This document shows, piece after piece, positions 3,886-49,218 of a stretch of DNA of 64,000 nucleotides (the stretch's first letter is position 1; every line of letters begins with the position of its first letter). Both the position numbers and the translations under genes were made by a program. Below the pieces are notes generated by a model. The model did not search any database, was not told where the DNA came from, and was given only the letters and a program-made list of their open reading frames with translations. This DNA is from Candidatus Hydrogenedens sp. GTDB taxonomy: Bacteria > Hydrogenedentota > Hydrogenedentia > Hydrogenedentales > Hydrogenedentaceae. Location of the stretch: assembly GCA_049968235.1 (NCBI GenBank), contig JBMFRC010000009.1, positions 1-64,000 of the forward strand, given 5' to 3'.

Positions 3886-3920
3886 AAAAAAAGTGCCGTC
3901 GGTTCTTTTGAACCGACGGC
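3886..3920 (-). terminator. Rho-independent terminator read on the minus strand (11-bp perfect stem GCCGUCGGUUC / GAACCGACGGC, 4-nt loop, then U7 on the minus strand)
   Basis: Plus-strand sequence aaaaaaagtGCCGTCGGTTCttttGAACCGACGGC. Sits ~200 nt upstream of the giant-protein start. Confidence 0.7.
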
Positions 3921-4175
3921 AAGGGTATATTTTATACCCTCTGCACTACCCTCTTAGTTTGGGGAGCGAAATGTAAGGGAAGATGAGATTTTGGTTTGTT
4001 TTGGAATCGGTTGATTTAAAGTGAGGAATGGAAGGGATTATAAAGCCGGAAACACCATTTTAAGAGCCCACTGGGGAGCAAGCCGCAGCCCTTGTTAAAT
4101 TTTACTTGTTCCAGCGGGCTCTTCATTATTAATCAAAACTCCACTCCTTCCTCAGGAGTCCCGCTTATTTTATTC
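3886..4175 (-). ncRNA. Candidate structured RNA / cis-regulatory leader (unclassified) in the divergent intergenic region
   Basis: Several stable hairpins (3895-3920; 3923-3939; 4143-4159). A 13-bp long-range stem 4062-4074/4111-4123 has one G.U wobble only when read on the minus strand. Minus-strand intrinsic terminator at the 3' end. No match I can assert to tmRNA, RNase P, SRP or 6S conserved motifs. Confidence 0.35.
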
Positions 4176-4297
4176 AATTGTTGTATCTTTTAAATAGCAA
4201 TATATATGCCATAGTTATACATAAATTATAATCTATTGTTATTTAGTATCTTATGTAAAAAATATAAATTCTTAAAATTGGAAATATGATATTGTTT

Positions 4298-4333
4298 TCC
4301 CAATTTGGGAATGCCTTGTTTCCCATTTTGGGA
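4298..4333. promoter_or_regulatory. Two copies of an imperfect palindrome TCCCA-N3-TGGGA (4298-4310, 4321-4333), 23 bp centre to centre, upstream of the sigma54-EBP start; candidate operator
   Basis: Direct reading: tCCCAatTTGGGAa and tCCCAtTTTGGGAa. Lies in the non-coding-looking N-terminal extension of the six-frame ORF. Confidence 0.35.
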
Positions 4334-4393
4334 AAAATAAAAATTGATTTATCTATCTTTTTATTGTATTCTATTAATAAAGGATATTTAACC

Positions 4394-6277
4394 ATGTCAT
4401 ATAAAGAAAATGAAAAGAAAATAAGATTTATTATTACAGCGCGTTCAGGATATATAAAAGGGAATGCGTGGGTTATTCCTGAAGATGGGGAATTAAATAT
4501 AGGTCGAGACCCGACATGTTCGATAATTATTGATGACCCACTTATCTCAAGGCATCATTGCCAGTTGTTTATTAGGGGTGATGAACTAATTATTCGTGAT
4601 TTGGGGAGTAGTAATTCAACATTTGTAAATGGGCATCCTATAAAAGAGAAGGTTCTTCATTCTGGAGATGATATAGGCGTGGGTAGTATTGTTTTTTCTG
4701 TGGGGACGGTAATTCCAGAAGGTAGTGTTACGGGAGATGAGACCAAGAAACTTCGAGCAACACGTCCTATAAAGATTGGTGCTCCTGTGTTTATTGAAGG
4801 GTCTCCACAAAATTTATTTGAAACCGGTAATCCACGTACTGCGGAAGACCTTGCAGGACTTTTTTTGCTTGCCCGTCAGTTAAGTCAATTATTTAAGGTG
4901 GAAGATATTATTAACCATGTATTAAAAGTAGTTCAGGAACGATTCAATCCGAATATTTATTGTTTAATTCAATTTACTCAGGACCCTTCCCAAAACTTTA
5001 TTTATCCTAAAAACGCAACACAAGCCATCACTTCAAATCCACAATTAATACAACTATTATCTCAAATTCGTGAGATGCCACGTGGGGTGCTTTATCCTGA
5101 AAGATTTTATAAGAATGGAGAAACGGTTATTCGCAATACAGTAATTGCTCCTATAGCCCTTGGGAAAGAAGTGATTGGTGCGTTAGTAATGATGGCAGAT
5201 ACACCACATCGATTTTATGAAGAAGCGGATTTAGAATACTTGTTAGCAATGGCACATACATTGGCTCCTTACCTTCGTGCTGCAGAGCGTATGCAACAAT
5301 TAGAATGGGAGAATCAAAGGCTAATTTCCGGAGGTATAAATTTTGACCCATTAATAGGGGAAAGCAAAGCCATACAAAAAGTTCGTTCACTTGCACGTGA
5401 TTGTGCCCATTCAGACCTTTGTGTTTTAATTTTGGGAGAGACAGGCACCGGGAAAGAACTGGTTGCTCGTCTTATTCATAATCTTTCTTACCGTTCTCAA
5501 AAAAAATTGGTAGTTGTGAATTGTGCGGCTATTCCTGAGGAACTTTTTGAAAGTGAACTTTTCGGGCATGAAAGAGGTGCTTTTACAGGTGCTCATGCTA
5601 CCAAAATAGGACTGATGGAAGAAGCCAATAATGGAACATTGTTTCTTGATGAAATTGGTGACCTCAGTCTGAATCATCAGGCACGACTCCTCCGTGCTAT
5701 TGAAACAGGAACATTTAGACGCATCGGTGGAAGTTCTGATATTCGTGTGGATGTGCGAGTTTTGTGTGCTACGAACAAAGATTTACCCTCTGAAGTCAAT
5801 GCGGGTCGGTTTAGAAGAGATTTGTTTCATCGATTAAATGCTTTTGTAATATCAATTCCACCTTTACGCGAACGCATTGAGGATATTCCTTTACTTGCAG
5901 ATTATTTCCTGCAACAAGTTCGACGAAAGTATCCTGTTCGGGCTACCCGATTTTCATCGCAATCTTTGAAATGGCTTCAAAATCAACCGTGGCATGGCAA
6001 TGTGCGTGAATTGCGTAATCTTATTGAACGCGCATCCATCGTTGCTAAAAGTGAGGAAATACAACCCCAGGATTTGGTTTCGGAGTTAACTGTCTATATC
6101 CCCGAAAAATTTCCTACCCTGGAAGAACTTGAAAAAGCCCATATTATTAAAGCATTACAACAGGCACAGGGAAATGTCGTTTCTGCGGCAGAAATGTTAG
6201 GCATAGGTAAAAGCACCCTTTATCGCAAACTTGCAGAGTATCGAATTAATTCTTCTACCTATTTAAATATGAAATAA
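4394..6277 (+). CDS. Sigma54-dependent transcriptional activator with N-terminal FHA domain, GAF-like domain, AAA+ sigma54-interaction domain and C-terminal Fis-type HTH
   Basis: FHA signature (NIGRDPTCSIIIDD...SRHHCQLF...IIRDLGSSNSTFVNG). Walker A GETGTGKE. GAFTGA motif. ESELFGHERGAFTGA. C-terminal HTH (QGNVVSAAEMLGIGKSTLYRKL). Start chosen at ATG 4394 (RBS AAAGGA 9 nt upstream); ORF-track codons 4286-4393 look non-coding. Confidence 0.85.
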   Translation: MSYKENEKKIRFIITARSGYIKGNAWVIPEDGELNIGRDPTCSIIIDDPLISRHHCQLFIRGDELIIRDLGSSNSTFVNGHPIKEKVLHSGDDIGVGSIVFSVGTVIPEGSVTGDETKKLRATRPIKIGAPVFIEGSPQNLFETGNPRTAEDLAGLFLLARQLSQLFKVEDIINHVLKVVQERFNPNIYCLIQFTQDPSQNFIYPKNATQAITSNPQLIQLLSQIREMPRGVLYPERFYKNGETVIRNTVIAPIALGKEVIGALVMMADTPHRFYEEADLEYLLAMAHTLAPYLRAAERMQQLEWENQRLISGGINFDPLIGESKAIQKVRSLARDCAHSDLCVLILGETGTGKELVARLIHNLSYRSQKKLVVVNCAAIPEELFESELFGHERGAFTGAHATKIGLMEEANNGTLFLDEIGDLSLNHQARLLRAIETGTFRRIGGSSDIRVDVRVLCATNKDLPSEVNAGRFRRDLFHRLNAFVISIPPLRERIEDIPLLADYFLQQVRRKYPVRATRFSSQSLKWLQNQPWHGNVRELRNLIERASIVAKSEEIQPQDLVSELTVYIPEKFPTLEELEKAHIIKALQQAQGNVVSAAEMLGIGKSTLYRKLAEYRINSSTYLNMK

Positions 6278-6573
6278 ATAAGCCCTGCAACTTGATGCCT
6301 GACAGTTCCCGATTAATGGTAAATGGTGAAAGTGTTTACTTGTTATTTTTAGTTAATTTTTATAAATTAAATAAAAAGGTGTTATGTCAGAGATATTATA
6401 GAATAATGATTATATTATCTGAAATATTGCTATCGTGAATTATCCCATTCTACCGGCGGATTATAGGTTTGGTCATTCTCATATTCGTTTTTAAAAAAAC
6501 AGTCTTATAGAAAGGGAAGGGGAATTTATGATATTCTATTGTAAAATAATGAGATATGAATGAGGAAAATGGC

Positions 6574-6876
6574 ATGTCTAAAAAAAAAATTAGTCGAGAT
6601 GAAATATATCATATTGCGGATTTAGCATATTTGTATCTTGACAATGAACAAGCAGATAGACTGGCTTCTGATTTGTCGGAAATAATAGATTATGTGGAGA
6701 AACTAAATGAACTATCCATAGAAGATGTAGAACCTATGATGCATGCAGTTCCGATGGAAAATATTTTAAGGGAAGATGATGTCCACATAACCATAACAAG
6801 GGAAGATGCTTTGCGTTGTGCTCCTCTACATGATGGCGAATATTTTTTGGTTCCGAAAATTTTGGAGGTGGATTAA
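6574..6876 (+). CDS. gatC: Asp-tRNA(Asn)/Glu-tRNA(Gln) amidotransferase subunit C
   Basis: GatC-like sequence (ISRDEIYHIADLAYLYLDNEQADRLASDLSEIIDYVEKL). Directly precedes gatA. RBS GAGGAAAA before ATG 6574. Confidence 0.85.
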   Translation: MSKKKISRDEIYHIADLAYLYLDNEQADRLASDLSEIIDYVEKLNELSIEDVEPMMHAVPMENILREDDVHITITREDALRCAPLHDGEYFLVPKILEVD

Positions 6877-6877
6877 A

Positions 6878-8356
6878 ATGTCTGAACATTGGTGGCAAAA
6901 AAGTGCTTCTGAAATAAGTGCATATGTAAGGAATAAAGAAGTATCACCGGTTGATGTTGTTCAAAGTTTTCTTGAGAGAATTCAACAGGTGGATAATAAA
7001 ATAGATGCCTTTACGCAGGTCTGGAGCGAGTATGCTATTCAACAAGCAAGAGCATTGGAAGAGAAAATCGTAAAGGATGGAGATTCTGTGGGACCCCTTG
7101 CGGGAGTGCCCGTGTCTATTAAGGAAGTAATTTGCACAAAGGAGGGGTTTACTACATGTGCTTCTAAAATTCTTGCGGGCTATCGTAGTCCTTATGATGC
7201 AACCGTTGTTGAGAAACTTTATAATGCGGATGCCATTTTGATTGGCAAGGTCAATATGGATGAGTTTGCCATGGGCTCATCTACGGAAAATAGTTCCATA
7301 AAATTAACAAGAAATCCATGGAATCTGGAATGTGTCCCCGGTGGATCTAGTGGAGGTTCTGCTGCGTCAGTGTCTGCGGAAGAGTGTGTTATATCATTAG
7401 GAAGTGATACCGGTGGTTCTATTCGCCAACCTGCATCTTTCTGTGGTTGTGTTGGATTAAAACCGACTTATGGGAGGGTATCCCGTTATGGTTTGGTAGC
7501 ATTTGCTTCTTCTTTAGACCAGATAGGTCCTTTAAGTAAAAATGTTATGGATAGTGCAATAACACTATCTATAATTGGTGGAAAAGACGAGCGAGATACT
7601 ACATCGGTTAATTTGCCTTTAACTGATTATGCTGAAAAAATTAAAAGAGGGATGGATAAAGTTTCGTTTCGAATTGGATTGCCTAAAGAATATTTTACAG
7701 AAGATTTAAACAAAGAGGTGAAAGACCTTATTATGGGTGCGGTGAAGGACCTTGAAAAACAGGGAGCGGAAATTGTAGAGGTGTCTTTACCTCATACCGA
7801 ATTTGCAGTTGCTACTTATTATATAATTTGTACCGCGGAAGCGAGTGCAAATTTAGCCCGTTTTGATGGGGTTCGCTATGGTTTCCGCCATACAGATTCA
7901 AAAAACATTATTGATATGTATAAACGAACCCGTAGTGAAGGATTTGGTCCCGAGGTTCAACGGCGGATATTGTTAGGAACTTATGTGTTGTCCAGTGGTT
8001 ATTATGATGCCTATTACTTAAAAGCCCAGAAGGTGCGTAAATTAATTACGCAGGATTTTGAGAAAGCATTTCAAAAATGTGATGTGATTATAGGACCCAC
8101 TTCACCTACCCCAGCTTTCCGTTTTGGTGAAAAGATACAAAATCCGTTAGAGATGTATTTGAGTGATATTTATACCATATCGGTAAATTTATCCGCATTG
8201 CCTGCAATATCTGTTCCGTGTGGGTTAACGCAAAGTGGTTTGCCTGTAGGTTTGCAATTTATTGGCAAACATTTTGATGAAGAATATCTATTACAGGTAG
8301 CGCATTTGTATGAAGTGAACAGAAGTCAAAAACTGGGAACGCCACCTTTAGAATAA
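6878..8356 (+). CDS. gatA: Glutamyl-tRNA(Gln) amidotransferase subunit A (amidase signature family)
   Basis: Amidase signature (GGSSGGSAASVSAEECVISLGSDTGGSIRQPASFCG). Start MSEHWW at 6878, overlapping the gatC stop. Confidence 0.9.
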   Translation: MSEHWWQKSASEISAYVRNKEVSPVDVVQSFLERIQQVDNKIDAFTQVWSEYAIQQARALEEKIVKDGDSVGPLAGVPVSIKEVICTKEGFTTCASKILAGYRSPYDATVVEKLYNADAILIGKVNMDEFAMGSSTENSSIKLTRNPWNLECVPGGSSGGSAASVSAEECVISLGSDTGGSIRQPASFCGCVGLKPTYGRVSRYGLVAFASSLDQIGPLSKNVMDSAITLSIIGGKDERDTTSVNLPLTDYAEKIKRGMDKVSFRIGLPKEYFTEDLNKEVKDLIMGAVKDLEKQGAEIVEVSLPHTEFAVATYYIICTAEASANLARFDGVRYGFRHTDSKNIIDMYKRTRSEGFGPEVQRRILLGTYVLSSGYYDAYYLKAQKVRKLITQDFEKAFQKCDVIIGPTSPTPAFRFGEKIQNPLEMYLSDIYTISVNLSALPAISVPCGLTQSGLPVGLQFIGKHFDEEYLLQVAHLYEVNRSQKLGTPPLE

Positions 8357-8379
8357 TAAAAAGGATACAGGATAAAAAT

Positions 8380-9813
8380 ATGAAGGAATATGAATCTGTT
8401 ATAGGAATGGAGGTGCATGTTGAAATTAATACGCTTTCCAAGGCGTTTTGTTCATGCAGTACAGATTTTCATGCTCCCCCAAATACTCAGGTATGTCCAG
8501 TTTGTTTAGGAATGCCTGGCGTTTTACCTGTTTTAAATAAAGAGTTTGTGAATAAAGCCATAGCAGTGGGACTTGCATTACATTGTTCCATTGCAAGGTG
8601 GTCTAAAATGGACCGAAAGAATTATTTTTATCCAGATTTAGCAAAAAATTATCAAATCAGTCAGTATGATTTGCCTTTATGCTATGATGGATACATGGAT
8701 ATTGAGGTAAAGGGTGAGAAGAAACAGGTGCGGATACTACGGGCACATCTGGAAGAGGATACGGCAAGGAATACCCATGATTTAGGAGGGGGATATAGTG
8801 GTGTGGATTTTAATCGGAGTGGTGTCCCTTTGCTGGAAATTGTAACTTATCCGGATTTGAGGTCATCGGATGAAGTTTTTGTTTTTCTGACAGAATTAAA
8901 ACAATTACTTGAGTATTTAGAAGTGAGTGACTGTAATATGGAAGAAGGGTCTCTTCGAGCAGAAGCCAATGTAAGTGTTCGCGAAAAAGGTGCAGAACAT
9001 TTAGGAGTTAAGACGGAGATAAAAAATGTGGCTTCGTTTAGTGGGGTTGTAAAAGCAATTGAATATGAAATAGAACGTCAAATACAGGTTTTACAATCGG
9101 GGGGCAAGGTAGTGCAGGAAACACGAGGTTGGGACCCTGACCGTGGAATAACTTTTTCACAAAGACAAAAAGAATCCGCTCATGATTATCGTTATTTTCC
9201 AGAACCAGACCTTGTTCCGCTTGCAATATCCAAAGAATGGATAGAACAGGTAAAGCAGACCATGCCTGAATTGCCTCAAATCCGAAGGAAGCGGTTTCAA
9301 GAAGAATATGGCTTATCGCTATACGATGCTAATGTATTGACTTCTTCTAAGGTTATGGCAGATTATTATGAAAAAACAGTTAAATTAGGAGTAGACCCAA
9401 AACAAACCGCCAATTGGATACAGGTAGAACTCCAATCGGTGCTTGCTTATGAGAATACAAGCATAGAAAATTCTCCTATAACACCCGAACATATGGCTCA
9501 ATTAATAACATTGGTTAAGGATGAAGTCATTAGTGGTAAAATTGCTAAAGAGGTTCTGAGAAAAGTTTATAAAACGGGGAAGTCTCCGGAAGAGATTATA
9601 AAAGAAGAAGGTTTATTGCAGATTACCGATATTGAAACAATACGAAAAATAGCACGAGAAGTGATAGAAAAAAATCCATCTCAGGTGGAGCAGTACCGTA
9701 ATGGAAAAGAAAAACTTTTTGGCTTTTTTGTGGGTCAAATCATGCGTGAAACAGAAGGAAAAGCCAATCCGAAGATGGTAAATGATATTTTGAAGGAAGA
9801 ATTAAATAAATAG
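8380..9813 (+). CDS. gatB: Asp-tRNA(Asn)/Glu-tRNA(Gln) amidotransferase subunit B
   Basis: N-terminus (IGMEVHVEINTLSKAFCSCS...CPVCLGMPGVLPVLN) and C-terminal GatB/YqeY domain. Confidence 0.9.
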   Translation: MKEYESVIGMEVHVEINTLSKAFCSCSTDFHAPPNTQVCPVCLGMPGVLPVLNKEFVNKAIAVGLALHCSIARWSKMDRKNYFYPDLAKNYQISQYDLPLCYDGYMDIEVKGEKKQVRILRAHLEEDTARNTHDLGGGYSGVDFNRSGVPLLEIVTYPDLRSSDEVFVFLTELKQLLEYLEVSDCNMEEGSLRAEANVSVREKGAEHLGVKTEIKNVASFSGVVKAIEYEIERQIQVLQSGGKVVQETRGWDPDRGITFSQRQKESAHDYRYFPEPDLVPLAISKEWIEQVKQTMPELPQIRRKRFQEEYGLSLYDANVLTSSKVMADYYEKTVKLGVDPKQTANWIQVELQSVLAYENTSIENSPITPEHMAQLITLVKDEVISGKIAKEVLRKVYKTGKSPEEIIKEEGLLQITDIETIRKIAREVIEKNPSQVEQYRNGKEKLFGFFVGQIMRETEGKANPKMVNDILKEELNK

Positions 9814-9826
9814 AAGGTAGAAGACA

Positions 9827-10252
9827 TTGAGAAAGAAAACATCAACAGTATCAAATGTTAGAAAAACAATACGTTCATCTCTGACAATAGCGAGGGCTAT
9901 AGCCCGAATAGCATCTGAAAAGAAAGCCAAAGATATTAAGGCATATAATCTGGAAGGTTTAACCCTTCTTGCAGATAGTTTTATCCTTTGCACTGTAACA
10001 AGTGAACCGCAACAAAAGGCTGTTTTTAATGCGGTGTATGAAGGATTGAAGACGAAGGGTATTGTCCCTCTATCCACCGAGGGTAGTTTTCAGGATAATT
10101 GGATGGTAATGGACTATGGTTCTGTAGTTTTTCACATCTTCAAACAAAAAGCACGCGATTACTATGACCTCGATGGAATGTGGGGAGATGCCCCTAAAAT
10201 AGAATTAAAATTGAAAGAAGATAAAACAGTGGGAAAAGGGGATAAGGATTGA
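9827..10252 (+). CDS. rsfS: Ribosomal silencing factor RsfS (Iojap family)
   Basis: Iojap-like core (DIKAYNLEGLTLLADSFILCTVTSEPQQKAVFNAVYEGLK...MVMDYGSVVFHIF). TTG start with GAAGG RBS. Confidence 0.8.
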   Translation: MRKKTSTVSNVRKTIRSSLTIARAIARIASEKKAKDIKAYNLEGLTLLADSFILCTVTSEPQQKAVFNAVYEGLKTKGIVPLSTEGSFQDNWMVMDYGSVVFHIFKQKARDYYDLDGMWGDAPKIELKLKEDKTVGKGDKD

Positions 10253-10256
10253 GTAT

Positions 10257-11099
10257 ATGTCGGATTCTTCCTATGCTCCAGACCGTTCACAGTTATATCA
10301 TATTCGACTTGTGAAAATTTTAGGACAGGGAGGAACGGGAATTGTATATCAAGGAATTGATACCAAGAAAGGAAATGCGGTTGCAGTAAAATTATTCCGT
10401 GAGAATTTTTTCAGGAATAGACTGCATCTTATGGACCTTGTCCAGAATGTTAAGAAGTTTAAAAAACTGAAACACCAAAATCTTGTTCAGATATTTGATT
10501 TTATTGATGGGGATGAAGGTCGGTGCATGTTAATGGAGTTCGTAGATGGACCTAACCTCCGATGGTATCTTACAAATCGTCCCTGGAATTTGCAAGAACG
10601 AGTAAATATTATAATTCAAATTTGTATTGGTTTACAGTTTCTTCACGATAATGGTTTTGTCCATCATGATTTTAAACCTGCGAATGTATTATTTACACGG
10701 AGAGGTATTGTTAAGATTGCGGACTACTCTTTGTTCGGGAATAATTTTATATTGGAATTACTGGACCGAAGTGTCAGTCAGCAAATTACACCTATGTTTG
10801 TTGCTCCGGAAGTGATTCGCGGGGAAAGGGTAACTCCTAAATCAGATTTATATTCTCTGGGTGTTACAATGTATATGATGTTTACAGAAAAATTACCTTT
10901 TCCTGTAGATAATTTACAACAATTGTATCATTGCCATTTGAATTTATTGCCTGAACACCCAACAAATGTAAATCCCAAATGTCCATTTGCGTTAGGTAAT
11001 GTAATTATGAAACTCCTCTCTAAAAAACCAGAAAACCGTTATCGTGATTGTGATGAATTACGAATTGCTTTGTCTAATGTAACTCAAAGTAGAATTTAA
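10257..11099 (+). CDS. Minimal Ser/Thr protein kinase (kinase domain only) with variant catalytic motifs (HHD for HRD; DYS for DFG)
   Basis: G-loop GQGGTGIVY, VAVK lysine, HHDFKPANVL catalytic loop, IADYSLFG, APE (VAPEV). No sensor or TM domains. Confidence 0.75.
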   Translation: MSDSSYAPDRSQLYHIRLVKILGQGGTGIVYQGIDTKKGNAVAVKLFRENFFRNRLHLMDLVQNVKKFKKLKHQNLVQIFDFIDGDEGRCMLMEFVDGPNLRWYLTNRPWNLQERVNIIIQICIGLQFLHDNGFVHHDFKPANVLFTRRGIVKIADYSLFGNNFILELLDRSVSQQITPMFVAPEVIRGERVTPKSDLYSLGVTMYMMFTEKLPFPVDNLQQLYHCHLNLLPEHPTNVNPKCPFALGNVIMKLLSKKPENRYRDCDELRIALSNVTQSRI

Positions 11100-11338: not shown

Positions 11339-11467
11339 TTAGGATGTTTTTATAAAAACAAACTCAACAATTTGGTCTGTCAATCTGACTAAGAAATCTT
11401 TCCATGCCTGGAAATTGCTTACCTGCATCTTTGCAGGTCTTTTTGTTAAAACCTGAACATGTTTCAT
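11339..11467 (-). CDS. Small hypothetical protein (42 aa; below the ORF-track size cutoff)
   Basis: Minus-strand ATG at 11467 preceded by strong RBS AAAGGAG (10-nt spacer) and a sigma70-like promoter. Peptide MKHVQVLTKRPAKMQVSNFQAWKDFLVRLTDQIVEFVFIKTS. Followed 17 nt later by the 73-aa paralog. Confidence 0.4.
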   Translation of the reverse strand: MKHVQVLTKRPAKMQVSNFQAWKDFLVRLTDQIVEFVFIKTS

Positions 11468-37321: not shown

Positions 37322-37461
37322 GAATATTTGCGAATTTATTAGACCGCAGAAAAGAAAAAATTTCCTTTGAAAAGGGAAAAAAATATCTTTGTTTTCAAAT
37401 ATGAAAAAAGTGAGTTTGATTAAGTAATTGATTTTTAAGTAGATATGAAAACTTATCTATG

Positions 37462-37477
37462 TGGCATATCATTTGCT
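37462..37477 (+). promoter_or_regulatory. Sigma54 (RpoN) promoter: TGGCAT-N5-TTGCT (GG-N10-GC) ~37 nt upstream of flgB
   Basis: tGGcatatcatTTGCt matches the -24/-12 consensus TGGCAC-N5-TTGCW in 10/11 positions. Confidence 0.65.
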
Positions 37478-37513: not shown

Positions 37514-37915
37514 ATGGTCAATGGAATAGGAAAAATAAGTGCCGAAACAATGCTAATTTCTGCAATGAAAGTAGCAGAGATTAATCATCGGTATATTGCT
37601 AATAATATAGCCAATGCGGATACCCCTGGATATACGCAAAAGGAATTAGATTTTCAGAAATCTCTCAACGCCGTATTGCAAGGGCGAGGGGGTATCGTTC
37701 TCCGCACGAACCACCCTCGCCATATCCAGGTAGAAAAAGAAGGAGTTGTTGTAGAAAAGAGAAAGAATGTACTGAAAAACGATTTTAATTCTGTGGACAT
37801 TGATGAACAAATTACAAAACTAACAGAGAATACAGGAAAAGTTACTGTTTATACTGCATTGTTAGCCAAGAGATTTAATCAGTTAACAACCATTATTAAC
37901 GACTTGAAGAGATAA
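37514..37915 (+). CDS. flgB: Flagellar basal-body rod protein FlgB
   Basis: ANNIANADTPGYTQKELDF. Confidence 0.9.
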   Translation: MVNGIGKISAETMLISAMKVAEINHRYIANNIANADTPGYTQKELDFQKSLNAVLQGRGGIVLRTNHPRHIQVEKEGVVVEKRKNVLKNDFNSVDIDEQITKLTENTGKVTVYTALLAKRFNQLTTIINDLKR

Positions 37916-37924
37916 GATAATAGT

Positions 37925-38350
37925 ATGCGAGTTGAAGGAATTTCTGCATGGGATATAGCCCTTAGTGGTATACGGGCTCAACGGCTGAGAATGAATATTA
38001 TTTCAAATAATATTGCTAATGCGGAAACAACCCGAACTGAAAAAGGAGGTGGTCCATTTCGCAGGCAGATGGTTCTGTTAAAGGGTTATGAATTAGGCAA
38101 GAATGTAACATCAAAACAAGCAGGAGTAGAAGTAAAGTCTGTAATTTATGATATGTCCCCATTTAAAGAAGTGTATGAACCAGAACATCCCGATGCTAAT
38201 AAACAAGGTATTGTAAAATATCCGAATGTCCAACTTGCGAATGAAATGGCAGACCTTGTGTCTGCACAACGAGCATACGAGGCCAATATTGCGGTTTTTG
38301 TGGCAAATCGGCAAATACGACAAAGAGCATTAGAAATTTTACAAAGATGA
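37925..38350 (+). CDS. flgC: Flagellar basal-body rod protein FlgC
   Basis: ALSGIRAQRLRMNIISNNIANAETTRT ... SAQRAYEAN. Confidence 0.9.
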   Translation: MRVEGISAWDIALSGIRAQRLRMNIISNNIANAETTRTEKGGGPFRRQMVLLKGYELGKNVTSKQAGVEVKSVIYDMSPFKEVYEPEHPDANKQGIVKYPNVQLANEMADLVSAQRAYEANIAVFVANRQIRQRALEILQR

Positions 38351-38439
38351 GTAATATAAGATTTTTTTATGATAAAATAATGATATGATATAGAGTAGAA
38401 ACAAAAAATAAAAAGGAAATAATAACGAGGTAGTATCCC

Positions 38440-38757
38440 GTGGATAATATTGATTCTATTCACCAAATAGGTCCGGTAAAACCTAAAGTAGATATACCCT
38501 CTGTAAGTCCTATTAGGACTACACCGGTTGAAAATAAAACTTCTTTTAAGGATATATTAGTTGATGCTGTATCTGAAGTTCAGAAATTACAGGATGAAGC
38601 AGATACAACTATTAAAAAATTAGTTTCGGGCGAGATAAAAGATGTAACTGAAGTAATGGTGGCGGTTCAACGGGCAGATACTGCTTTTCAAACCCTGATG
38701 GCAGTTCGAAATAAAGTAATAACGGCGTACGAAGAGATAATGCGAATGCAAATTTAG
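38440..38757 (+). CDS. fliE: Flagellar hook-basal body complex protein FliE
   Basis: C-terminal VMVAVQRADTAFQTLMAVRNKVITAYEEIMRMQI. Confidence 0.85.
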   Translation: MDNIDSIHQIGPVKPKVDIPSVSPIRTTPVENKTSFKDILVDAVSEVQKLQDEADTTIKKLVSGEIKDVTEVMVAVQRADTAFQTLMAVRNKVITAYEEIMRMQI

Positions 38758-38859
38758 TATTTGACATGAGGTCAATACCCTGTGATTTGAAAAATCAAAT
38801 CCAGGAAAGAGCGGAGGTAAAAATTGAATAATTTCCCTAAAAAAATTTATTAAAAATTC

Positions 38860-38888
38860 TTGACATGATACACTATATATTGTATTAT
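38860..38888 (+). promoter_or_regulatory. Consensus sigma70 promoter (TTGACA-N17-TATTAT) internal to the flagellar cluster, upstream of fliF
   Basis: TTGACAtgatacactatatattgTATTAT. Confidence 0.5.
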
Positions 38889-38988
38889 ATAAACAAAAGT
38901 GATCTATTAGTTTGGTTTTGTTTGTTGTGTTACATTAAAATATATACAATAAGTTGATGAAAAATAAAAAGAAATATATAGTGTATTT

Positions 38989-40545
38989 ATGGAAACGATT
39001 TTACAATTCATAAATGGAATAAGAGAATTCTGGGCTAAGTTAACACTCAGTGCTAAAGTTATTATCGGGGTTTCTTTCTTTATAGTTTTTTTAGGTCTGT
39101 TATTAATTATATTCATTGGAGCACAGCCCCAATATACGGTTTTATCTGCGGGACTTTCGCCTCAAGAGATTTCTAAAATAACAGATGTATTATCCCGTCA
39201 GGGGATTCGATACCAGTTAGGAGACAACAATACAAGTGTATTAGTTCCCGTAAATGAAAGAAGTAATGCACAATTATTACTGGCACAGAGCGACTTGCCT
39301 GTTGGAAGACCTGTTCCTCCGGGCTGGGAATTATTTTCCACAACGGAATTAATGACCAATCAGTGGTTGCAGAATGTAAAATTTATGAGGGCTCTTCAAG
39401 GAGAGATACAAAAGCAGTTAAATGCTTTTGATTTTGTAAATGATAGTTATGTTCTTATCCGTGAAGCAAAAGAAGAGTTATTTGTGTCGGAACAAAAACC
39501 GTCAGAAGCGGCAGTTACGCTTGATATAAATAGACCCCTAACCAAACAGGAAATAAAGGCTATAGTTAGTATTGTAGACCATGCTGGCGGAGCCAATCTT
39601 CACCCTGGGAACATTACCATAGTGAGCACAAAAGGAGATGTTTTATACTTACCTCCCCAGTCTGGATTTGCTTCTCTTGCAAGTTCCAAATTGGAATTAT
39701 TGACCGAATGGGAGAAACAGCGAGAGATGAAAGTAATGAATAAATTGCGGGAATTAGGAGTTCGGGGGACTGTCTCCGTGAGTGCTAAGATAAACTTTGA
39801 TAGTTCTGAAGAGATAGAAGAAAAAGTAAGTGAAGGAACTGAAATAAGCACTTCAACGACAGAGACAAGCAGTGAGACGAACGAAAAACCACCTGAAGGT
39901 GCTCCGGGTGTAGTTGCTAATGTCCCTGAAGCCACAGTTCCTGGGGCTACTTCTACTAAAGAGACGACGACAGAGGAAATTGCAAACTATGAACCCTCTC
40001 GTTTAACGAGAAAAAAGAAGAAAGAAGGAGGAAATGTTGAGAAATTCCTTGTGACTGTTATTGTGGAAGGAGATTATCAAGAAACACAGGATGAGCAGGG
40101 TAATAAGAAGCGAAATTATATAGGTCTTTCCGAAGAGCGGAAGAAGATGTTTCAAGATTTTGTGATGTCTGCAGTAGGTGAAGGAGAAGTCCCCACAGAG
40201 GTATTGGTTTACGACCAGCCTTTTGGCATTTCGGAATTAGAGACCGGAATTCCCAAATCGGAAGAAATGCCATTCCAGTGGAGAACATGGCTGACACCCG
40301 TTACAGTCATTATTCAACTATTCGTTATTTTTGTAGTCTTTCTATTATTAAGGTCGTTTTTAAGGAGTACAGTAGTGGAGAAGAAAGAAATAGAAGAAGA
40401 AGAGGAACCGGTTGAGTTACCGGGTGTTTCCAAAGAAGATTTACGAAGACAAGAAGTGGCTCGGGAAGTGGCTCGGGTATCTATCGAGGAACCCGAAACC
40501 GCAGCTGCTTTAATTCGTTCATGGTTATCAGAAGGAGAAGAGTAA
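38989..40545 (+). CDS. fliF: Flagellar M-ring protein FliF
   Basis: N-terminal TM, YscJ/FliF fold motifs, charged S/T/E-rich linker, C-terminal TM and FliG-binding tail. Confidence 0.85.
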   Translation: METILQFINGIREFWAKLTLSAKVIIGVSFFIVFLGLLLIIFIGAQPQYTVLSAGLSPQEISKITDVLSRQGIRYQLGDNNTSVLVPVNERSNAQLLLAQSDLPVGRPVPPGWELFSTTELMTNQWLQNVKFMRALQGEIQKQLNAFDFVNDSYVLIREAKEELFVSEQKPSEAAVTLDINRPLTKQEIKAIVSIVDHAGGANLHPGNITIVSTKGDVLYLPPQSGFASLASSKLELLTEWEKQREMKVMNKLRELGVRGTVSVSAKINFDSSEEIEEKVSEGTEISTSTTETSSETNEKPPEGAPGVVANVPEATVPGATSTKETTTEEIANYEPSRLTRKKKKEGGNVEKFLVTVIVEGDYQETQDEQGNKKRNYIGLSEERKKMFQDFVMSAVGEGEVPTEVLVYDQPFGISELETGIPKSEEMPFQWRTWLTPVTVIIQLFVIFVVFLLLRSFLRSTVVEKKEIEEEEEPVELPGVSKEDLRRQEVAREVARVSIEEPETAAALIRSWLSEGEE

Positions 40546-40546
40546 T

Positions 40547-41584
40547 ACGGCACCGAAAAAAGATACAAAAGAACCTGAGAAACTAACAGGTCGAAAAAAA
40601 GCGGCAATTCTGCTGGCATGTTTGGGTCCAGAACATGCGAGTAATATTCTTGCTCATTTAAGAGATGCTGAAATTGACCGCCTCACGCTGGATATTGCTT
40701 CTCTGGGAACTATTGACCCGGAGATTAAGGCAAAAATATTTGATGAGTTTTTCCAGATGGTAGAGGCAAAACGGTTCGTAGCAGAGGGAGGAATTGAATT
40801 AGCCAAGGAATTATTAGAGAAATCCTTTGGTGCACAAAAAGCGGTAGAAATATTGAGTCGTTTACAAAGTTCCTTGCAGGAAGTTCCTTTTCAATTTTTA
40901 AAGAAAGCAGACCCATCACAAATCAGTAGTTTTATTCAGGAGGAACACCCTCAAACCATTGCATTAATATTAGCCCACCTCGACCCTAAAGTTTCTGCTC
41001 TGGCTCTCTCTTCATTACCTCCTGAGACACAAACCGATGTAATTTATCGTATTGCCACGATGGATCGAACCGCTCCTGAAATTATTCATGAGGTAGAACG
41101 GGTTCTGGAAAGAAAAATGGCAGCGGTTTTCACACAAGGATTTACTTTTGCTGGAGGTGTGAAAGAAGTAGCAGAGATACTCAATCTTGTTGAACGGTCT
41201 GCTGAAAAGAGTATTATGGAAAAATTGCAAGAAAAGGACCCGGATTTAGCAAATGAAATCAATAAATTAATGTTTACTTTTGATGATTTGATTTATGTTG
41301 ACGATGCAGGTATTCAAAAGGCATTGAGAGAAATTGATTCTAAGGATTTGGCTTTAGCTTTGAAATCATCTACGGATGAAGTCAAAGACAAAATATTTAA
41401 AAATATGTCAGAACGTGCTCGGGAAATGTTGAAAGAAGAGATAGAATTTATGGGTCCTGTTCGACTTAAAAATGTGGAAGAGGCTCAACAACGAATTGTG
41501 GCAGTAATACGCCGATTAGAAGAAGCAGGTGACCTTATTATCACAGGAAGAGGAGAAGGTGGAGGCGAAGAAATTCTTGTTTAA
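40547..41584 (+). CDS. fliG: Flagellar motor switch protein FliG (apparent non-ATG start: ACG at 40547 after RBS AAGGAG; conservative alternative TTG 40622)
   Basis: Conserved FliG N-terminus (APKKDTKEPEKLTGRKKAAILLACLGPEHASNILAHL) is in frame upstream of the ORF-track start, with no ATG/GTG/TTG available. Middle and C-terminal FliG motifs (MFTFDDL, EFMGPVRLK). Confidence 0.8.
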   Translation, partial: TAPKKDTKEPEKLTGRKKAAILLACLGPEHASNILAHLRDAEIDRLTLDIASLGTIDPEIKAKIFDEFFQMVEAKRFVAEGGIELAKELLEKSFGAQKAVEILSRLQSSLQEVPFQFLKKADPSQISSFIQEEHPQTIALILAHLDPKVSALALSSLPPETQTDVIYRIATMDRTAPEIIHEVERVLERKMAAVFTQGFTFAGGVKEVAEILNLVERSAEKSIMEKLQEKDPDLANEINKLMFTFDDLIYVDDAGIQKALREIDSKDLALALKSSTDEVKDKIFKNMSERAREMLKEEIEFMGPVRLKNVEEAQQRIVAVIRRLEEAGDLIITGRGEGGGEEILV

Positions 41585-41592
41585 CAATCAGG

Positions 41593-42303
41593 ATGGATAT
41601 ATTTATGTCTAAGGTTAAGAAAACACAAAAAGTTATTACTGAAAATACAGAAATAAAGTTTCTATCTCGTAATGATTTGAAAGAATTTCCGAAAGAAAAA
41701 GAGATTTCTGACGACCCTTTAAGCATGTATTCTCCGGAGGAATTGCGTGCTTTAGTGCTAGAACAGGCTCAACTGGAAGCGGAGGAAATGAAACGGAAAG
41801 CCTATGAAGAAGGATACAATGCAGGCAAATTACATGCTGAAAAGGAATTCCAACAATTCCTTGAGGAGATGAATAAAATTGTTCAAGAAAGTATAAAAAC
41901 AATTACTCAAGCAAGAACCAGCTTCCTTGAGCAATTGACTCCTCAAATCCTTAAAATGGTTTTTCAAATTTCTGAACAGGTAATCTCTGCTCAAATCCAA
42001 ATAAAGTCAGATATTGTTGAGGTTATTATAAGAGAAACATTAGAGGAATTAATAGATAGTCAGGAGATATATTTACATATTCATCCGGATGATTATGCAT
42101 TAATTGAAGCGGAAATCAAATCGCAATTGGAGGGTGGTAGCATAATGCAAAAGGTTATTTTTGTCCCGGATGAAACAATAGAAAGGAGTGGATGTATTGC
42201 GGAAACTAAAACACAATTTATAGATAATCAAATTTCTTCACGATTAAAACTAATCATTGAGAAGATAGTTAACCTTGCGAGGGAAAATGGTGTTGACATT
42301 TAA
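41593..42303 (+). CDS. fliH: Flagellar assembly protein FliH
   Basis: Position between fliG and fliI. FliH-like E-rich N-terminus (EAEEMKRKAYEEGYNAGK). Confidence 0.75.
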   Translation: MDIFMSKVKKTQKVITENTEIKFLSRNDLKEFPKEKEISDDPLSMYSPEELRALVLEQAQLEAEEMKRKAYEEGYNAGKLHAEKEFQQFLEEMNKIVQESIKTITQARTSFLEQLTPQILKMVFQISEQVISAQIQIKSDIVEVIIRETLEELIDSQEIYLHIHPDDYALIEAEIKSQLEGGSIMQKVIFVPDETIERSGCIAETKTQFIDNQISSRLKLIIEKIVNLARENGVDI

Positions 42304-43597
42304 GCCTTATATCGATATTGTTCAAGGGACAAAGCCATTTCAAATTTGTGGCAAGGTTAAAAATATTACGGGGTTAACTATTGAAGTTACGGGTCCAGAA
42401 ATGAGAGTTGGGGACCTATGCTATATATCATCAAGGGACAGAAAAAATCTGATACCTGTGGAAGTGGTTGGTTTTAGAAATGACCATTATCTTGTAATGC
42501 CTCTGGATGAGATTCAAGGGTTAGGACCGGGCTATATTTTAATTCCAACTTTTCAGTCACGAAATGTCCCTGTTGGAGATGCCTTTTTGGGAAGGGTTAT
42601 TGATGCTCTCGGTAATCCTATGGATGGAAAGCCTTTCCCTAAAGTTAGTGAAAAGAGGTCGCTATATACATGCCCTCCATCTGCAGTGTTTCGTCCTCGA
42701 ATAACAGAACCATTAGCGACAGGGATAAAATCCATTGATGGATGTACTACCTGTGGTAAAGGACAGCGTGTAGCAATTCTTTCCGGAAGTGGTGTGGGAA
42801 AAAGCAAATTGATTGGGATGATTGCACGGAACACCAATGCGGATATAAATGTAATCGCTCTTGTAGGAGAACGAGGGAAAGAAGTTCGTGAGTTTATCGA
42901 TTTAGATTTAGGAGAAGAAGGACTGAAAAGGTCTGTGGTTGTTGTGGCAACATCACACGAGTCTGCATTAAGACGAATTAGCGCTGGCTATGTAGCAACA
43001 ACAATTGCAGAATATTTTCGTGACCAGGGTGCAGATGTATTGTTGATGATGGATTCTATAACAAGGTTTGCTATGGCACAACGCGAAATAGGTTTATCTA
43101 TTGGAGAGCCTCCAACAACGAAAGGATATACACCGTCCGTGTTCAGTCTTTTGCCCCGTCTATTGGAACGGGTAGGGACATCAAAGAAAGGAACTATAAC
43201 AGGTTTTTATACAGTTCTTGTAGAAGCAGATGATTTGAATGACCCCATAGGCGATGCTGTTCGTAGTATTACGGATGGGCATATTTCTTTATCACGGAGT
43301 TTAGCATCTCGTGGACATTATCCTCCGGTAGATGTTCTGGAAAGTATTAGCCGTTCCATGCTGGAAATTACATCGTCGGAACATCGTGTACTATCAAATA
43401 AAATACGAAGTATTCTGGCTATTTATCGTGATGCCGAAGATCTGGTAAATATTGGGGCTTATGTTACAGGGTCAAATAAGGAGATTGATGAGGCGTTACG
43501 GCTTATGCCGAAAATAAGAAAATTTTTAATCCAGGATTTGTATGAAAAGGTTTCCTGGGACCAAATTTTACCCTTAATGAAGGAGGCACTTGGTTAA
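42275..43597 (+). CDS. fliI: Flagellum-specific ATP synthase FliI
   Basis: Walker A GSGVGKS, Walker B LLMMDS, F1/T3SS ATPase fold. Confidence 0.9.
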   Translation: MRGKMVLTFKPYIDIVQGTKPFQICGKVKNITGLTIEVTGPEMRVGDLCYISSRDRKNLIPVEVVGFRNDHYLVMPLDEIQGLGPGYILIPTFQSRNVPVGDAFLGRVIDALGNPMDGKPFPKVSEKRSLYTCPPSAVFRPRITEPLATGIKSIDGCTTCGKGQRVAILSGSGVGKSKLIGMIARNTNADINVIALVGERGKEVREFIDLDLGEEGLKRSVVVVATSHESALRRISAGYVATTIAEYFRDQGADVLLMMDSITRFAMAQREIGLSIGEPPTTKGYTPSVFSLLPRLLERVGTSKKGTITGFYTVLVEADDLNDPIGDAVRSITDGHISLSRSLASRGHYPPVDVLESISRSMLEITSSEHRVLSNKIRSILAIYRDAEDLVNIGAYVTGSNKEIDEALRLMPKIRKFLIQDLYEKVSWDQILPLMKEALG

Positions 43598-43602
43598 TTG
43601 TC

Positions 43603-44061: not shown

Positions 44062-44099
44062 TTATAAATATATGGTATTGAAACATAGGAAACGAGAAT

Positions 44100-44675: not shown

Positions 44676-44767
44676 AATTCATTCCTTAATAAACTAATCT
44701 AATTCGAATTCAAAACTTATTCCTTGATTTGGTTGAAATATTAACTCTTTTTTTAAGGAGAGGATTT

Positions 44768-46264: not shown

Positions 46265-46276
46265 AGGAGAAATACT

Positions 46277-46903: not shown

Positions 46904-46977
46904 CGAAACATTCATCTGAAATGAAAAGAAGAGTCCTAAATATAAATTAAACCAATAAACCATAAGGAGATATAACT

Positions 46978-48237: not shown

Positions 48238-48286
48238 TCTTAATACATGATTTCATTAACAAAAAAATCCTACTAATTCCAAATAA

Positions 48287-49212: not shown

Positions 49213-49218
49213 GACATT

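What the first reader, a model, noticed from the sequence alone, without database searches (positions are those of the whole stretch)
4394..11099. FHA-domain sigma54 activator and a stand-alone Ser/Thr kinase in one neighbourhood, plus a sigma54 flagellar promoter: possible phospho-Thr to EBP to RpoN circuit
The enhancer-binding protein carries an N-terminal FHA domain (a phospho-threonine reader) instead of a receiver domain, plus a GAF domain. About 4 kb downstream, the last gene of the gatCAB-rsfS operon is a minimal Hanks-type kinase with no sensory domains. A near-consensus sigma54 promoter precedes the flagellar rod operon at 37462-37477. It is a plausible inference that the kinase modulates the FHA-EBP, which in turn drives sigma54-dependent flagellar genes. 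Co-transcription of a kinase with translation-fidelity genes (gatCAB, rsfS) is itself unusual.
Basis: inference. Interest (0 to 1): 0.5.

Follow-up and report, generated by a model that had tools for sequence, protein, structure and literature searches.

The report
Three separate modules, not one circuit
The regulator, the kinase and the flagellar promoter all exist, but comparison with related genomes shows they are three independently conserved units: the regulator most likely switches on an unannotated small RNA gene right beside it, and the kinase belongs to a translation operon.

Summary
The window comes from a Candidatus Hydrogenedentota genome.
- an FHA–(GAF-like)–AAA+–HTH sigma54 activator (EBP) at 4394-6277;
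- a gatC-gatA-gatB-rsfS-kinase gene string at 6556-11099;
- a sigma54 promoter before flgB at 37462-37476.

The proposed wiring is not supported.
- **EBP–kinase proximity is species-specific.** It occurs only in relatives with 94% identical EBPs. EBP orthologues of 52-87% identity sit in other contexts. None of 12 kinase loci has an FHA or EBP gene within 10 kb.
- **The kinase is locked behind rsfS.** It follows rsfS in 12 of 12 loci across the phylum.
- **The EBP carries its own conserved target.** Two palindromes (TTCCCA-N3-TGGGAA, 4297-4334) lie upstream of a divergent sigma54 promoter (4211-4197, minus strand). That promoter drives a ~300-nt transcript (4186→3886) that ends in a terminator, has no conserved ORF and has no Rfam match. 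The layout resembles luxO–qrr1.
- **The flgB promoter is conserved but has a different upstream palindrome.** Its motif is TTCCYT-N3-5-ARGGAA. Its activator is unidentified.

Some Ser/Thr kinase probably gates the EBP. Nothing singles out this one.

The parts
3886..4186 (-). Candidate sigma54-dependent small RNA, about 300 nt. The start is inferred about 12 nt after the −12 GC.
   Evidence: Conserved next to EBP orthologues. No conserved ORF. The fold has z = −4.0. A covariance model of the 5' domain hits window 4062-4188 at 151 bits, plus 6 related loci. No Rfam family matches.
3894..3921 (-). Intrinsic terminator of the small RNA: a 12-bp stem followed by a T7 run.
   Evidence: Strongest terminator in 3600-11700. 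Compensatory changes occur in its stem across loci.
4197..4211 (-). Sigma54 (−24/−12) promoter, TGGCATATATATTGC, divergent from the EBP gene.
   Evidence: The same element sits at the same place in L082, L084, L085, L087, L089, L090, L092, L093, L094, L104 and L105. A weaker copy is in L100.
4297..4334 (.). Two tandem palindromes, TTCCCAATTTGGGAA and TTCCCATTTTGGGAA, 23 bp apart. They are putative enhancer (UAS) sites of the EBP.
   Evidence: These are the only exact matches in 64 kb. The pair is conserved in all close-clade loci. The proximal site centre lies 92-93 bp from the −24 element.
4394..6277 (+). FHA–(GAF-like)–AAA+–HTH sigma54 enhancer-binding protein. Approximate domain coordinates: FHA 4424-4711, GAF-like 4841-5326, AAA+ 5351-5851, HTH 6116-6241.
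   Evidence: Pfam; orthologue family; AlphaFold model and fold search; PDB profile search.
6556..9813 (+). gatC, gatA and gatB (Glu-tRNA(Gln) amidotransferase).
   Evidence: Pfam. Conserved upstream of rsfS-kinase in related loci.
9827..10252 (+). rsfS (ribosome silencing factor).
   Evidence: Pfam RsfS. NCBIfam TIGR00090 scores 97 bits against a cut-off of 57.
10257..11099 (+). Stand-alone Hanks-type Ser/Thr kinase, 280 aa. It is a non-RD kinase (HHD, with DYS in place of DFG) and is the last gene of the gatCAB-rsfS operon.
   Evidence: Pfam; alignment A1; directly follows rsfS in 12 of 12 loci; PknB/StkP-like by sequence.
11421..11438 (+). First convincing terminator-like hairpin downstream of the kinase gene.
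37362..37378 (.). Conserved palindrome TTCCTTTGAAAAGGGAA, about 93 bp upstream of the flgB −24 element. It is a putative enhancer for an unidentified activator.
   Evidence: Related palindromes lie at the same distance in L157, L158 and L159. The motif occurs twice in the window against 0.14 expected.
37462..37476 (+). Sigma54 promoter of the flagellar operon, TGGCATATCATTTGC.
   Evidence: Conserved with the −24 element 43-66 nt upstream of the flgB start codon in L157-L160, whose FlgB is 57-84% identical.
37514..52513 (+). Flagellar operon from flgB to fliP.
   Evidence: Pfam.

Best explanation
The region holds three independently conserved units that happen to lie on one contig.

**(A) A self-contained regulatory cassette.** The FHA–GAF-like–AAA+–HTH activator binds the two TTCCCA-N3-TGGGAA palindromes just upstream of its own gene. 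From there it activates the divergent sigma54 promoter, producing a ~300-nt, terminator-ended, non-coding RNA. Its long C/U-rich single-stranded stretch contains motifs such as CCCUUCC/CCCUCCC, so it probably acts as a base-pairing regulator. Activator activity is presumably gated through the FHA domain by a phospho-threonine ligand made by some Ser/Thr kinase, and perhaps also by a ligand of the GAF-like domain.

**(B) The operon gatC-gatA-gatB-rsfS-kinase.** The 280-aa kinase is co-transcribed with translation genes throughout the phylum. It most likely acts on the translation apparatus (RsfS, the ribosome, GatCAB or an elongation factor), not on the EBP.

**(C) A sigma54-dependent flagellar operon.** It has its own conserved upstream palindrome, and the activator for it is not encoded in this window.

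**Status of each step**
- Shown: domain content, conservation of each unit, and non-conservation of the A–B adjacency.
- Inferred: EBP binding to the palindromes, the RNA being a regulator, and the kinase's substrates.
For: **(A) EBP and small-RNA cassette**
- Palindrome pair, sigma54 promoter and terminated transcript recur beside EBP orthologues in the window, L082/83/91, L084, L087/88, L089, L090 and L092. L093 has them too but is cut.
- With diverged RNA sequence, they also recur in L085, L094 and L100. L104 and L105 keep the promoter and palindromes.
- The genes on either side differ between loci: sat, SpoU, mraZ, clpP or GLUG-protein genes. The cassette therefore moves as a unit.
- The exact palindrome is unique to this spot in 64 kb.
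- The RNA has no conserved ORF, fold z = −4.0 and a 12-bp terminator.
- The arrangement matches luxO with a divergent qrr gene, which is conserved in 20 of 21 Vibrionaceae (PMC10162802).

**(B) Kinase operon**
- The kinase follows rsfS in 12 of 12 loci, and gatB-rsfS-kinase is present in 10 of 10 loci long enough to show it.
- Kinase identity across these loci (52-88%) is comparable to GatA (59-86%) and GatB (60-84%).
- Orthologues have a fixed length of about 280 aa. Identity drops sharply from 52% to 34% outside the phylum.
- None of 68 non-orthologous kinase loci has rsfS or gat genes nearby.

**(C) Flagellar promoter**
- The flgB promoter is conserved in L157-L160.
- A distinct palindrome lies 92-94 bp upstream in 4 of 5 loci.

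**Window census**
- There is no other EBP or kinase in the window.
- No further FHA domain, PP2C phosphatase or rpoN turned up among the ORFs put through Pfam; about a dozen ORFs of 100 aa or more were not scanned.
Against: - No transcript data exist, so the RNA is inferred only from promoter, terminator and conservation.
- Covariation support for its structure is weak: 2 compensatory pairs in 7 similar sequences, no better than shuffles.
- The covariance model does not recognise the transcripts of more distant cassettes, so RNA homology across the phylum is unproven.
- The flgB palindrome shares the outer TTCC…GGAA bases with the EBP's proximal site. It also shares the same 92-94 bp distance to the −24 element. 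The same EBP, or a close paralogue, binding there is therefore not excluded.
- In GCA_017880035.1 the EBP and flgB also lie about 41 kb apart on one contig. The window's spacing is 33 kb.
- No terminator was detected between the EBP gene and gatC, so read-through in this species cannot be ruled out.
- The kinase's substrates are entirely unknown.
Confidence: 0.6

Rival explanations
1. The rsfS-linked kinase phosphorylates the FHA-EBP or its FHA ligand, and the EBP then activates the sigma54 flgB promoter to control motility.
For: - The FHA pThr-binding residues are intact.
- This is the only Hanks kinase and the only EBP in 64 kb.
- The flgB promoter needs some EBP.
- The flgB palindrome shares its outer half-site bases and its distance with the EBP's site.
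- FHA-containing EBPs were linked to Ser/Thr kinase signalling in Myxococcus. That rests on my own knowledge of Jelsbak et al. 2005 PNAS 102:3010; the reference is listed but the paper was not readable here.
Against: - Adjacency is confined to relatives with 94% identical EBPs.
- No kinase locus has an FHA or EBP gene nearby.
- The exact EBP palindrome is absent at flgB in 5 loci. flgB has a single site with different inner bases and variable spacing.
- Other kinases exist in these genomes. L009 has a second one 9 kb away.
Confidence: 0.07
2. The FHA-EBP has two targets. It activates both the adjacent small RNA and the flagellar operon, binding the flgB palindrome as a weaker variant site. It is gated by an unidentified kinase elsewhere in the genome.
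For: - Both promoters place a TTCC…GGAA palindrome 92-94 bp upstream of the −24 element.
- No flagellum-specific EBP is found in the flagellar cluster or elsewhere in the window (Pfam scans of the cluster).
- EBP and flgB lie 33-41 kb apart on one contig in two distantly related genomes.
Against: - The inner CCCA/TGGG bases are invariant in the EBP's sites across orthologues of 45-95% identity, yet they are replaced at flgB (TTCCTT or TTCCCT).
- Spacing between the half-sites varies from 3 to 5 bases at flgB.
- L160 has no such site.
- The flgB-type motif recurs inside the flagellar cluster at 46138 but not near the EBP. That suggests a separate flagellar regulator.
Confidence: 0.2
3. The divergent sigma54 transcript is not a stand-alone regulatory RNA. 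It is instead a long 5' leader, an attenuator, or a small-protein gene for whatever lies downstream.
For: - In L082 and L084 the next gene on that strand is ATP sulfurylase.
- In the window and L087/88 the next gene is a GLUG/PASTA surface protein.
- In L105 no terminator was found.
- The window has a 36-codon ORF at 4016-4126.
Against: - Strong terminators end the transcript in the window, L082, L084, L085, L087, L089, L090, L092, L094 and L100.
- The downstream gene differs between loci, and in L085 it is convergent.
- The 36-codon ORF loses its start codon in L082 and L087, and its frame in L084.
Confidence: 0.13

Closest known systems
LuxO–Qrr1 (Vibrionaceae): a sigma54 activator gene with a divergently encoded sigma54-dependent small RNA
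   Same: - The activator gene and an sRNA gene are back to back.
- Tandem upstream activator sites lie between them.
- The sRNA has a −24/−12 promoter and a terminator.
- The cassette is conserved as a unit (PMC10162802).
   Different: - The input domain is FHA plus a GAF-like domain, not a receiver domain fed by a phosphorelay.
- The RNA is about 300 nt, against about 100 nt for Qrr (Qrr length from my own knowledge).
- The RNA has no Rfam match, including to Qrr.
- The phylum is different.
FHA-domain enhancer-binding proteins of Myxococcus xanthus (Jelsbak, Givskov & Kaiser 2005)
   Same: An N-terminal FHA domain replaces the receiver domain on a sigma54 AAA+ activator. This implies Ser/Thr-kinase input. 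That reading rests on my own knowledge; the citation was seen.
   Different: - The Hydrogenedentota family adds a GAF-like domain between FHA and AAA+.
- It has a fixed adjacent target, the divergent small-RNA gene.
- No partner kinase has been identified, and none is linked to it.
GarA/OdhI and Bdellovibrio DgcB: FHA proteins switched by a phosphorylated threonine in their own tail
   Same: - The FHA domain is closest in sequence and fold to GarA/OdhI.
- DgcB shows an FHA domain gating an enzymatic output domain through a phosphorylated N-terminal peptide (PDB 6hc1 title).
   Different: - No phospho-acceptor tail has been demonstrated here.
- The conserved PRT149AE[DE]L motif may simply be a helix cap.
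- The output here is a AAA+ transcription activator.
PknB/StkP-type Hanks kinases
   Same: - The catalytic domain is homologous, E about 1e-36 to StkP and 1e-32 to PknB.
- K45, D138, K140, N143 and D156 are invariant.
   Different: - There are no transmembrane or PASTA/sensor domains.
- It is a non-RD kinase (HHD) with DFS/DYS in place of DFG.
- It has a fixed 280-aa length and a conserved C-terminal R-I.
- It is embedded in a gatCAB-rsfS operon. No paper mentioning gatCAB together with a Hanks kinase was found in the searchable library.
Sigma54-dependent flgBC/rod-hook operons of Vibrio, Pseudomonas, Campylobacter and Helicobacter
   Same: A conserved −24/−12 promoter lies directly before flgB, with an upstream palindrome about 90 bp away.
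   Different: No FlrA/FleQ/FlrC/FlgR-type activator is encoded in or near the cluster within this window. Instead, a REC–degenerate-GGDEF protein and a GNAT are conserved just upstream.

Membership tests
Bacterial enhancer-binding protein (sigma54 activator) | AAA+ Sigma54_activat domain with the GAFTGA loop and Walker A/B motifs | tested here: met
   PF00158, E 4e-68. GETGTGKE, LFLDEIG and GAFTGA can be read in the translation.
Bacterial enhancer-binding protein (sigma54 activator) | C-terminal Fis-type HTH, and a cognate −24/−12 promoter with upstream activator sites | tested here: met
   HTH_8, E 1e-14. A conserved divergent sigma54 promoter with paired palindromes lies next to the gene in at least 12 distinct loci.
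FHA (phospho-threonine-binding) domain | FHA beta-sandwich fold | tested here: met
   PF00498, E 1.4e-20. AlphaFold pLDDT is about 85-94 over residues 11-106. Foldseek finds GarA/OdhI with rmsd about 1 Å and TM(target) 0.86-0.92.
FHA (phospho-threonine-binding) domain | Conserved pThr-contacting residues (Gly-Arg, Ser-x-x-His, Asn) | tested here: met
   G37, R38, S52, H55 and N74 are invariant in 13 diverse orthologues.
FHA (phospho-threonine-binding) domain | Actual binding of a phosphopeptide | not testable with these tools
   Needs ITC or a pull-down with phosphopeptides.
GAF domain | Match to a GAF profile above threshold, or a GAF fold | tested here: inconclusive
   GAF_2 scores 22.7 bits against a cut-off of 28.6. 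Orthologues carry GAF hits. No PDB sequence hit covers this part. The model has a confident alpha/beta domain, but the fold-search list was filled with FHA hits.
Hanks-type Ser/Thr protein kinase | Pkinase domain with the catalytic Lys, catalytic-loop Asp and Asn, and Mg-binding Asp | tested here: met
   PF00069 scores 154 bits. K45, D138, N143 and D156 are invariant in 23 orthologues.
Hanks-type Ser/Thr protein kinase | Canonical HRD and DFG motifs (RD kinase regulated through the activation loop) | tested here: not met
   The motifs are HHD, and DYS or DFS, in all orthologues. This makes it a non-RD kinase, but it does not argue against catalysis.
Cognate FHA protein / Ser-Thr kinase pair | Conserved gene neighbourhood of kinase and FHA protein across relatives | tested here: not met
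   None of 12 kinase loci has FHA or EBP sequence within 10 kb. Adjacency occurs only in relatives with 94% identical EBPs. By contrast, several unrelated kinases in other phyla do have FHA genes next to them (L017, L023, L033, L042, L061).
Cognate FHA protein / Ser-Thr kinase pair | Phosphotransfer or physical interaction | not testable with these tools
   Needs a kinase assay or two-hybrid experiment.
LuxO/Qrr-type activator–sRNA cassette | Divergent sRNA gene with a sigma54 promoter and activator sites beside the activator gene | tested here: met
LuxO/Qrr-type activator–sRNA cassette | Receiver-domain activator, and an RNA belonging to the Qrr family | tested here: not met
   The N-terminus is an FHA domain. 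No Rfam hit is found at the gathering threshold or at E up to 10. It works like the family but is not a member.
Structured or regulatory small RNA | Covariation-supported secondary structure | tested here: inconclusive
   97.9% of cells are paired, but only 2 pairs have compensatory changes. 72-75 of 500 shuffles do as well. There are too few sequences and they are too similar.
Sigma54-dependent flagellar operon | Conserved −24/−12 element directly upstream of the first flagellar gene | tested here: met
   TGGCA[CT]-N5-TTGC lies with its −24 element 43-66 nt upstream of the flgB start codon in 5 of 5 loci.
RsfS (ribosome silencing factor) | Equivalog model above its cut-off | tested here: met
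   TIGR00090 scores 97.3 bits against a cut-off of 56.9.

The most novel reading that the evidence does not exclude
The phylum-wide kinase in the gatCAB-rsfS operon reports translational status. It may phosphorylate RsfS, the ribosome or GatCAB. Its phospho-threonine output is also what the FHA-EBP reads. Together these would form a chain from translation status to pThr to sigma54 to small RNA, and perhaps on to flagella. That chain would link Hanks-kinase signalling, ribosome silencing and riboregulation in an uncultivated phylum.
Probability: 0.08. Interest if true: 0.7.

Novelty: new variant of a known kind. Interest (0 to 1): 0.42.

Why it matters
For genome annotation, the result shows that proximity within one genome was misleading here. 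The comparative data separate three units.

Two of them may deserve follow-up.
- **An FHA-gated sigma54 activator with a fixed, adjacent small-RNA target.** This would be a compact, testable example of Ser/Thr-phosphorylation signalling feeding into riboregulation. The RNA family is absent from Rfam.
- **A stand-alone Hanks kinase conserved like a housekeeping gene behind rsfS and gatCAB across a whole candidate phylum.** This points to kinase control of translation or ribosome hibernation. I found no described precedent in the searchable literature.

Both rest on sequence inference only, in an uncultivated lineage. FHA-containing sigma54 activators and activator genes paired with a small-RNA gene are both already known as kinds.

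Tried and rejected
1. **sRNA target prediction.**
   - I ran RNAduplex of the C/U-rich region against the translation-initiation regions of 62 window genes.
   - The best hit was the kinase start region at −28.8 kcal/mol.
   - Shuffled seeds reached this value in 58 of 100 trials, so it is rejected as non-significant.
2. **Rfam.** There are no matches at the gathering threshold in the window or in six related loci. Only chance-level hits appear at E up to 10.
3. **Covariance model R1 of the RNA 5' domain.**
   - It recovers only the 7 close-clade copies it was built from.
   - It finds nothing in L085, L094, L100, L104 or L105, and no extra copies in the kinase or flagellar loci.
4. **Covariation test of the RNA structure.** The result is not significant.
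5. **Conserved PRT149AE[DE]L motif as a phospho-acceptor.**
   - The motif is attractive because it has an acidic residue at pT+3.
   - However, the AlphaFold model places T149 at the N-cap of the first helix.
   - A structural capping box explains it equally well, so it is not claimed.
6. **flgB palindrome as a terminator of the upstream GNAT gene.** Rejected: it is an AT-rich stem with no T-run on the + strand, and its distance to the promoter is conserved.
7. **Second flgB-type palindrome at 46138.** No sigma54 promoter follows it.
8. **ORF starting at 4286 as the EBP start.** Rejected, because orthologues start at the 4394 equivalent and the extension would cover the palindromes.
9. **Literature searches.** The searchable library holds no paper that mentions gatCAB together with a Hanks kinase, and a search on RsfS with threonine kinases turned up nothing relevant among the papers listed. 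The Jelsbak 2005 paper could not be read.

Full report
**Origin and observation**

Close homologues of the window's proteins are annotated as Candidatus Hydrogenedentes/Hydrogenedentota or Hydrogenedens sp..

- The ORF at 4394-6277 encodes a 627-aa protein with four Pfam domains:
  - FHA, E 1.4e-20;
  - Sigma54_activat, E 4e-68;
  - AAA_lid_14;
  - HTH_8.
- The GAF assignment is only sub-threshold: GAF_2 scores 22.7 bits against a cut-off of 28.6. Orthologues carry GAF hits. An AlphaFold model shows a confident alpha/beta domain at residues 150-311.
- Downstream lie gatC, gatA, gatB, rsfS and a 280-aa protein consisting only of a Pkinase domain. They are separated by 1, 23, 13 and 4 nt.
- No terminator-like site falls in any gap between these genes, and the only + strand candidates inside the string are weak 5-6-pair stems within gatA, gatB and rsfS. 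The first convincing one lies after the kinase, at 11421-11438.
- TGGCATATCATTTGC at 37462-37476 lies with its −24 TGG 52 nt upstream of flgB. flgB opens a flagellar operon that runs from flgB to fliP.

**Is the kinase linked to the EBP?**

The kinase has tightly conserved orthologues of about 280 aa. In 12 species-representative genome loci they are 52-88% identical to it. The next-best kinases are at most 34% identical.

- In all 12 loci the kinase directly follows rsfS.
- gatB-rsfS-kinase is present in all 10 loci long enough to show it.
- The kinase is about as conserved as GatA and GatB.
- None of the 12 loci contains any FHA or EBP sequence within ±10 kb. This includes L013, whose kinase is 88% identical and whose gatC is preceded by unrelated genes.

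EBP orthologues sit in varied contexts:

| EBP identity | Downstream neighbour |
|---|---|
| 94% (L087/L088) | gatC, as in the window |
| 87%, 80%, 79% | GLUG-protein genes |
| 81% | mraZ / dcw cluster |
| 60% | clpP-tig |
| 52% | unrelated genes |

So the 4-kb proximity is a recent, species-level rearrangement and not evidence of partnership. In other phyla, several unrelated kinases fetched in the same scan do have FHA genes beside them. Genuine pairs can therefore show such linkage.

**What the EBP does have next to it**

Upstream of and divergent from every close orthologue is a fixed arrangement.

- **Palindromes.** Two TTCCCA-N3-TGGGAA sites lie 23 bp apart, at window 4297-4311 and 4320-4334. 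These are the only exact copies in 64 kb.
- **Promoter.** A near-consensus sigma54 promoter lies on the minus strand, 92-93 bp from the centre of the proximal palindrome (window 4211-4197).
- **Transcript.**
  - It is a conserved region of 250-330 nt ending in a strong intrinsic terminator. In the window the terminator is at 3921-3894 and is the best in the region.
  - In the window it would run from about 4186 to 3886.
  - It has no conserved ORF.
  - It folds with z = −4.0.
  - It contains a conserved 11-bp hairpin and a long C/U-rich unpaired stretch.
  - It matches no Rfam family.

More distant orthologues keep the palindromes and the promoter. L085, L094 and L100 also have a terminated transcript of 310-415 nt, but with unrecognisably diverged sequence. 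In L104 and L105 the transcript could not be delimited: L104 is cut and no terminator was found in L105. More distant FHA-EBP paralogues lack the arrangement.

The flanking genes differ from locus to locus, so the activator gene, enhancer, promoter and RNA gene travel as a cassette. The closest known analogue is luxO with its divergent qrr gene (PMC10162802). Here the input domain is an FHA domain, not a receiver.

Structural covariation is not significant with only seven similar sequences. No expression data exist. The RNA therefore remains a well-supported prediction, not a demonstrated gene.

**The flagellar promoter**

The −24/−12 element before flgB is conserved in four further loci whose FlgB is 57-84% identical. 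It is very likely functional.

About 93 bp upstream, four of the five loci carry a palindrome of the form TTCCYT-N3-5-ARGGAA. In the window this motif occurs twice against 0.14 expected. The second copy is also inside the flagellar cluster.

- It shares the outer TTCC/GGAA bases and the distance with the EBP's proximal site.
- It lacks the CCCA/TGGG core, which is invariant in the EBP's own sites.
- It is single, not tandem, and its spacing varies.

I read this as the site of a different, possibly paralogous, activator. Binding by the FHA-EBP is not excluded, and I put it at roughly 0.2.

The window encodes no other EBP or kinase. No further FHA protein, PP2C phosphatase or rpoN turned up among the ORFs scanned with Pfam, which left about a dozen ORFs of 100 aa or more unscanned.

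**The kinase itself**

- It is PknB/StkP-like and no NCBIfam equivalog passes its cut-off.
- K45, D138, K140, N143 and D156 are invariant.
- It has HHD in place of HRD, and DFS/DYS in place of DFG. It is therefore a probably active, non-RD kinase that would not need activation-loop phosphorylation.
- Its fixed operon position behind a ribosome silencing factor and the tRNA-dependent amidotransferase suggests a translation-related substrate. That step is inference only.
- The searchable library held no paper that mentions gatCAB together with a Hanks kinase. A search on RsfS with threonine kinases showed nothing relevant among the papers listed.

**FHA input**

- The pThr-contact residues are invariant.
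- The domain is most like GarA/OdhI.

Gating by a phospho-threonine ligand is therefore plausible. FHA-bearing sigma54 activators were described in Myxococcus; the Jelsbak 2005 reference was seen, and what I say about its content is from my own knowledge. Which kinase provides the signal cannot be determined here.

**Verdict**

- The specific circuit (this kinase to this EBP to flgB) is not supported. I put the whole chain at about 0.07.
- What is really there is three separately conserved modules. Two have some novelty: an FHA-gated activator with an adjacent small-RNA gene unknown to Rfam, and a gatCAB-rsfS-kinase operon conserved across the phylum.

Noticed in passing
window 7341-7435 (+): ARAGORN calls a 95-nt tRNA-Arg (anticodon gcg) inside the gatA coding sequence. 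It is almost certainly a false positive. Rfam finds no tRNA in the window.
   Followed up: partly
window 1-3687 (-): A very large secreted protein of more than 1229 aa runs off the window start. It has GLUG and PASTA domains and internal repeats. Homologues flank the EBP cassette on one side or the other in L087-L090 and L092. Whether this reflects function or a multi-copy gene family is unknown.
   Followed up: partly
window 35734-37321 (+); L157-L159: A receiver-domain protein with a weak, probably degenerate GGDEF domain, followed by a GNAT acetyltransferase, is conserved directly upstream of the flgB promoter in four loci. It may be a motility-linked regulator.
   Followed up: no
window 46138-46153 (+): A second copy of the flgB-type palindrome, TTCCTTTTCAAGGGAA, lies in the 3' end of fliK, about 125 nt before flgD. 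No sigma54 promoter follows it.
   Followed up: partly
L009 18964-19734; L106 9-422: L009 has a second Hanks kinase 9 kb downstream of the rsfS-linked one. L106, which holds a paralogous FHA-EBP 43% identical to the window's, has a kinase-like fragment just upstream of the EBP gene. So these genomes hold several kinases, and some FHA-EBP paralogues may have a neighbouring one.
   Followed up: no
window 4832-4858 (EBP residues 147-155): The motif P-R-T149-A-E-[DE]-L between the FHA and GAF-like domains is nearly invariant. It fits an FHA-ligand pattern with an acidic residue at pT+3. The model places T149 at a helix N-cap, so a structural capping box is an equally good explanation.
   Followed up: partly
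L007 and L011: gatA is missing between gatC and gatB in L007. In L011 it is separated from gatB by about 2.2 kb. gatB-rsfS-kinase stays intact in both.
   Followed up: no
L006 and L008: Two orthologous gatB-rsfS-kinase contigs are labelled Nitrospiraceae in their MAG records. Their proteins are 58-63% identical to the window's, and the contigs are short (4.6 and 6.9 kb). Mis-binning is likely.
   Followed up: no
window 20688-21659 (+) and 53001-55040 (-): The first gene encodes a protein with several EF-hand motifs and a dockerin-like match. The second encodes an EF-G-like GTPase and lies immediately after the flagellar operon.
   Followed up: no
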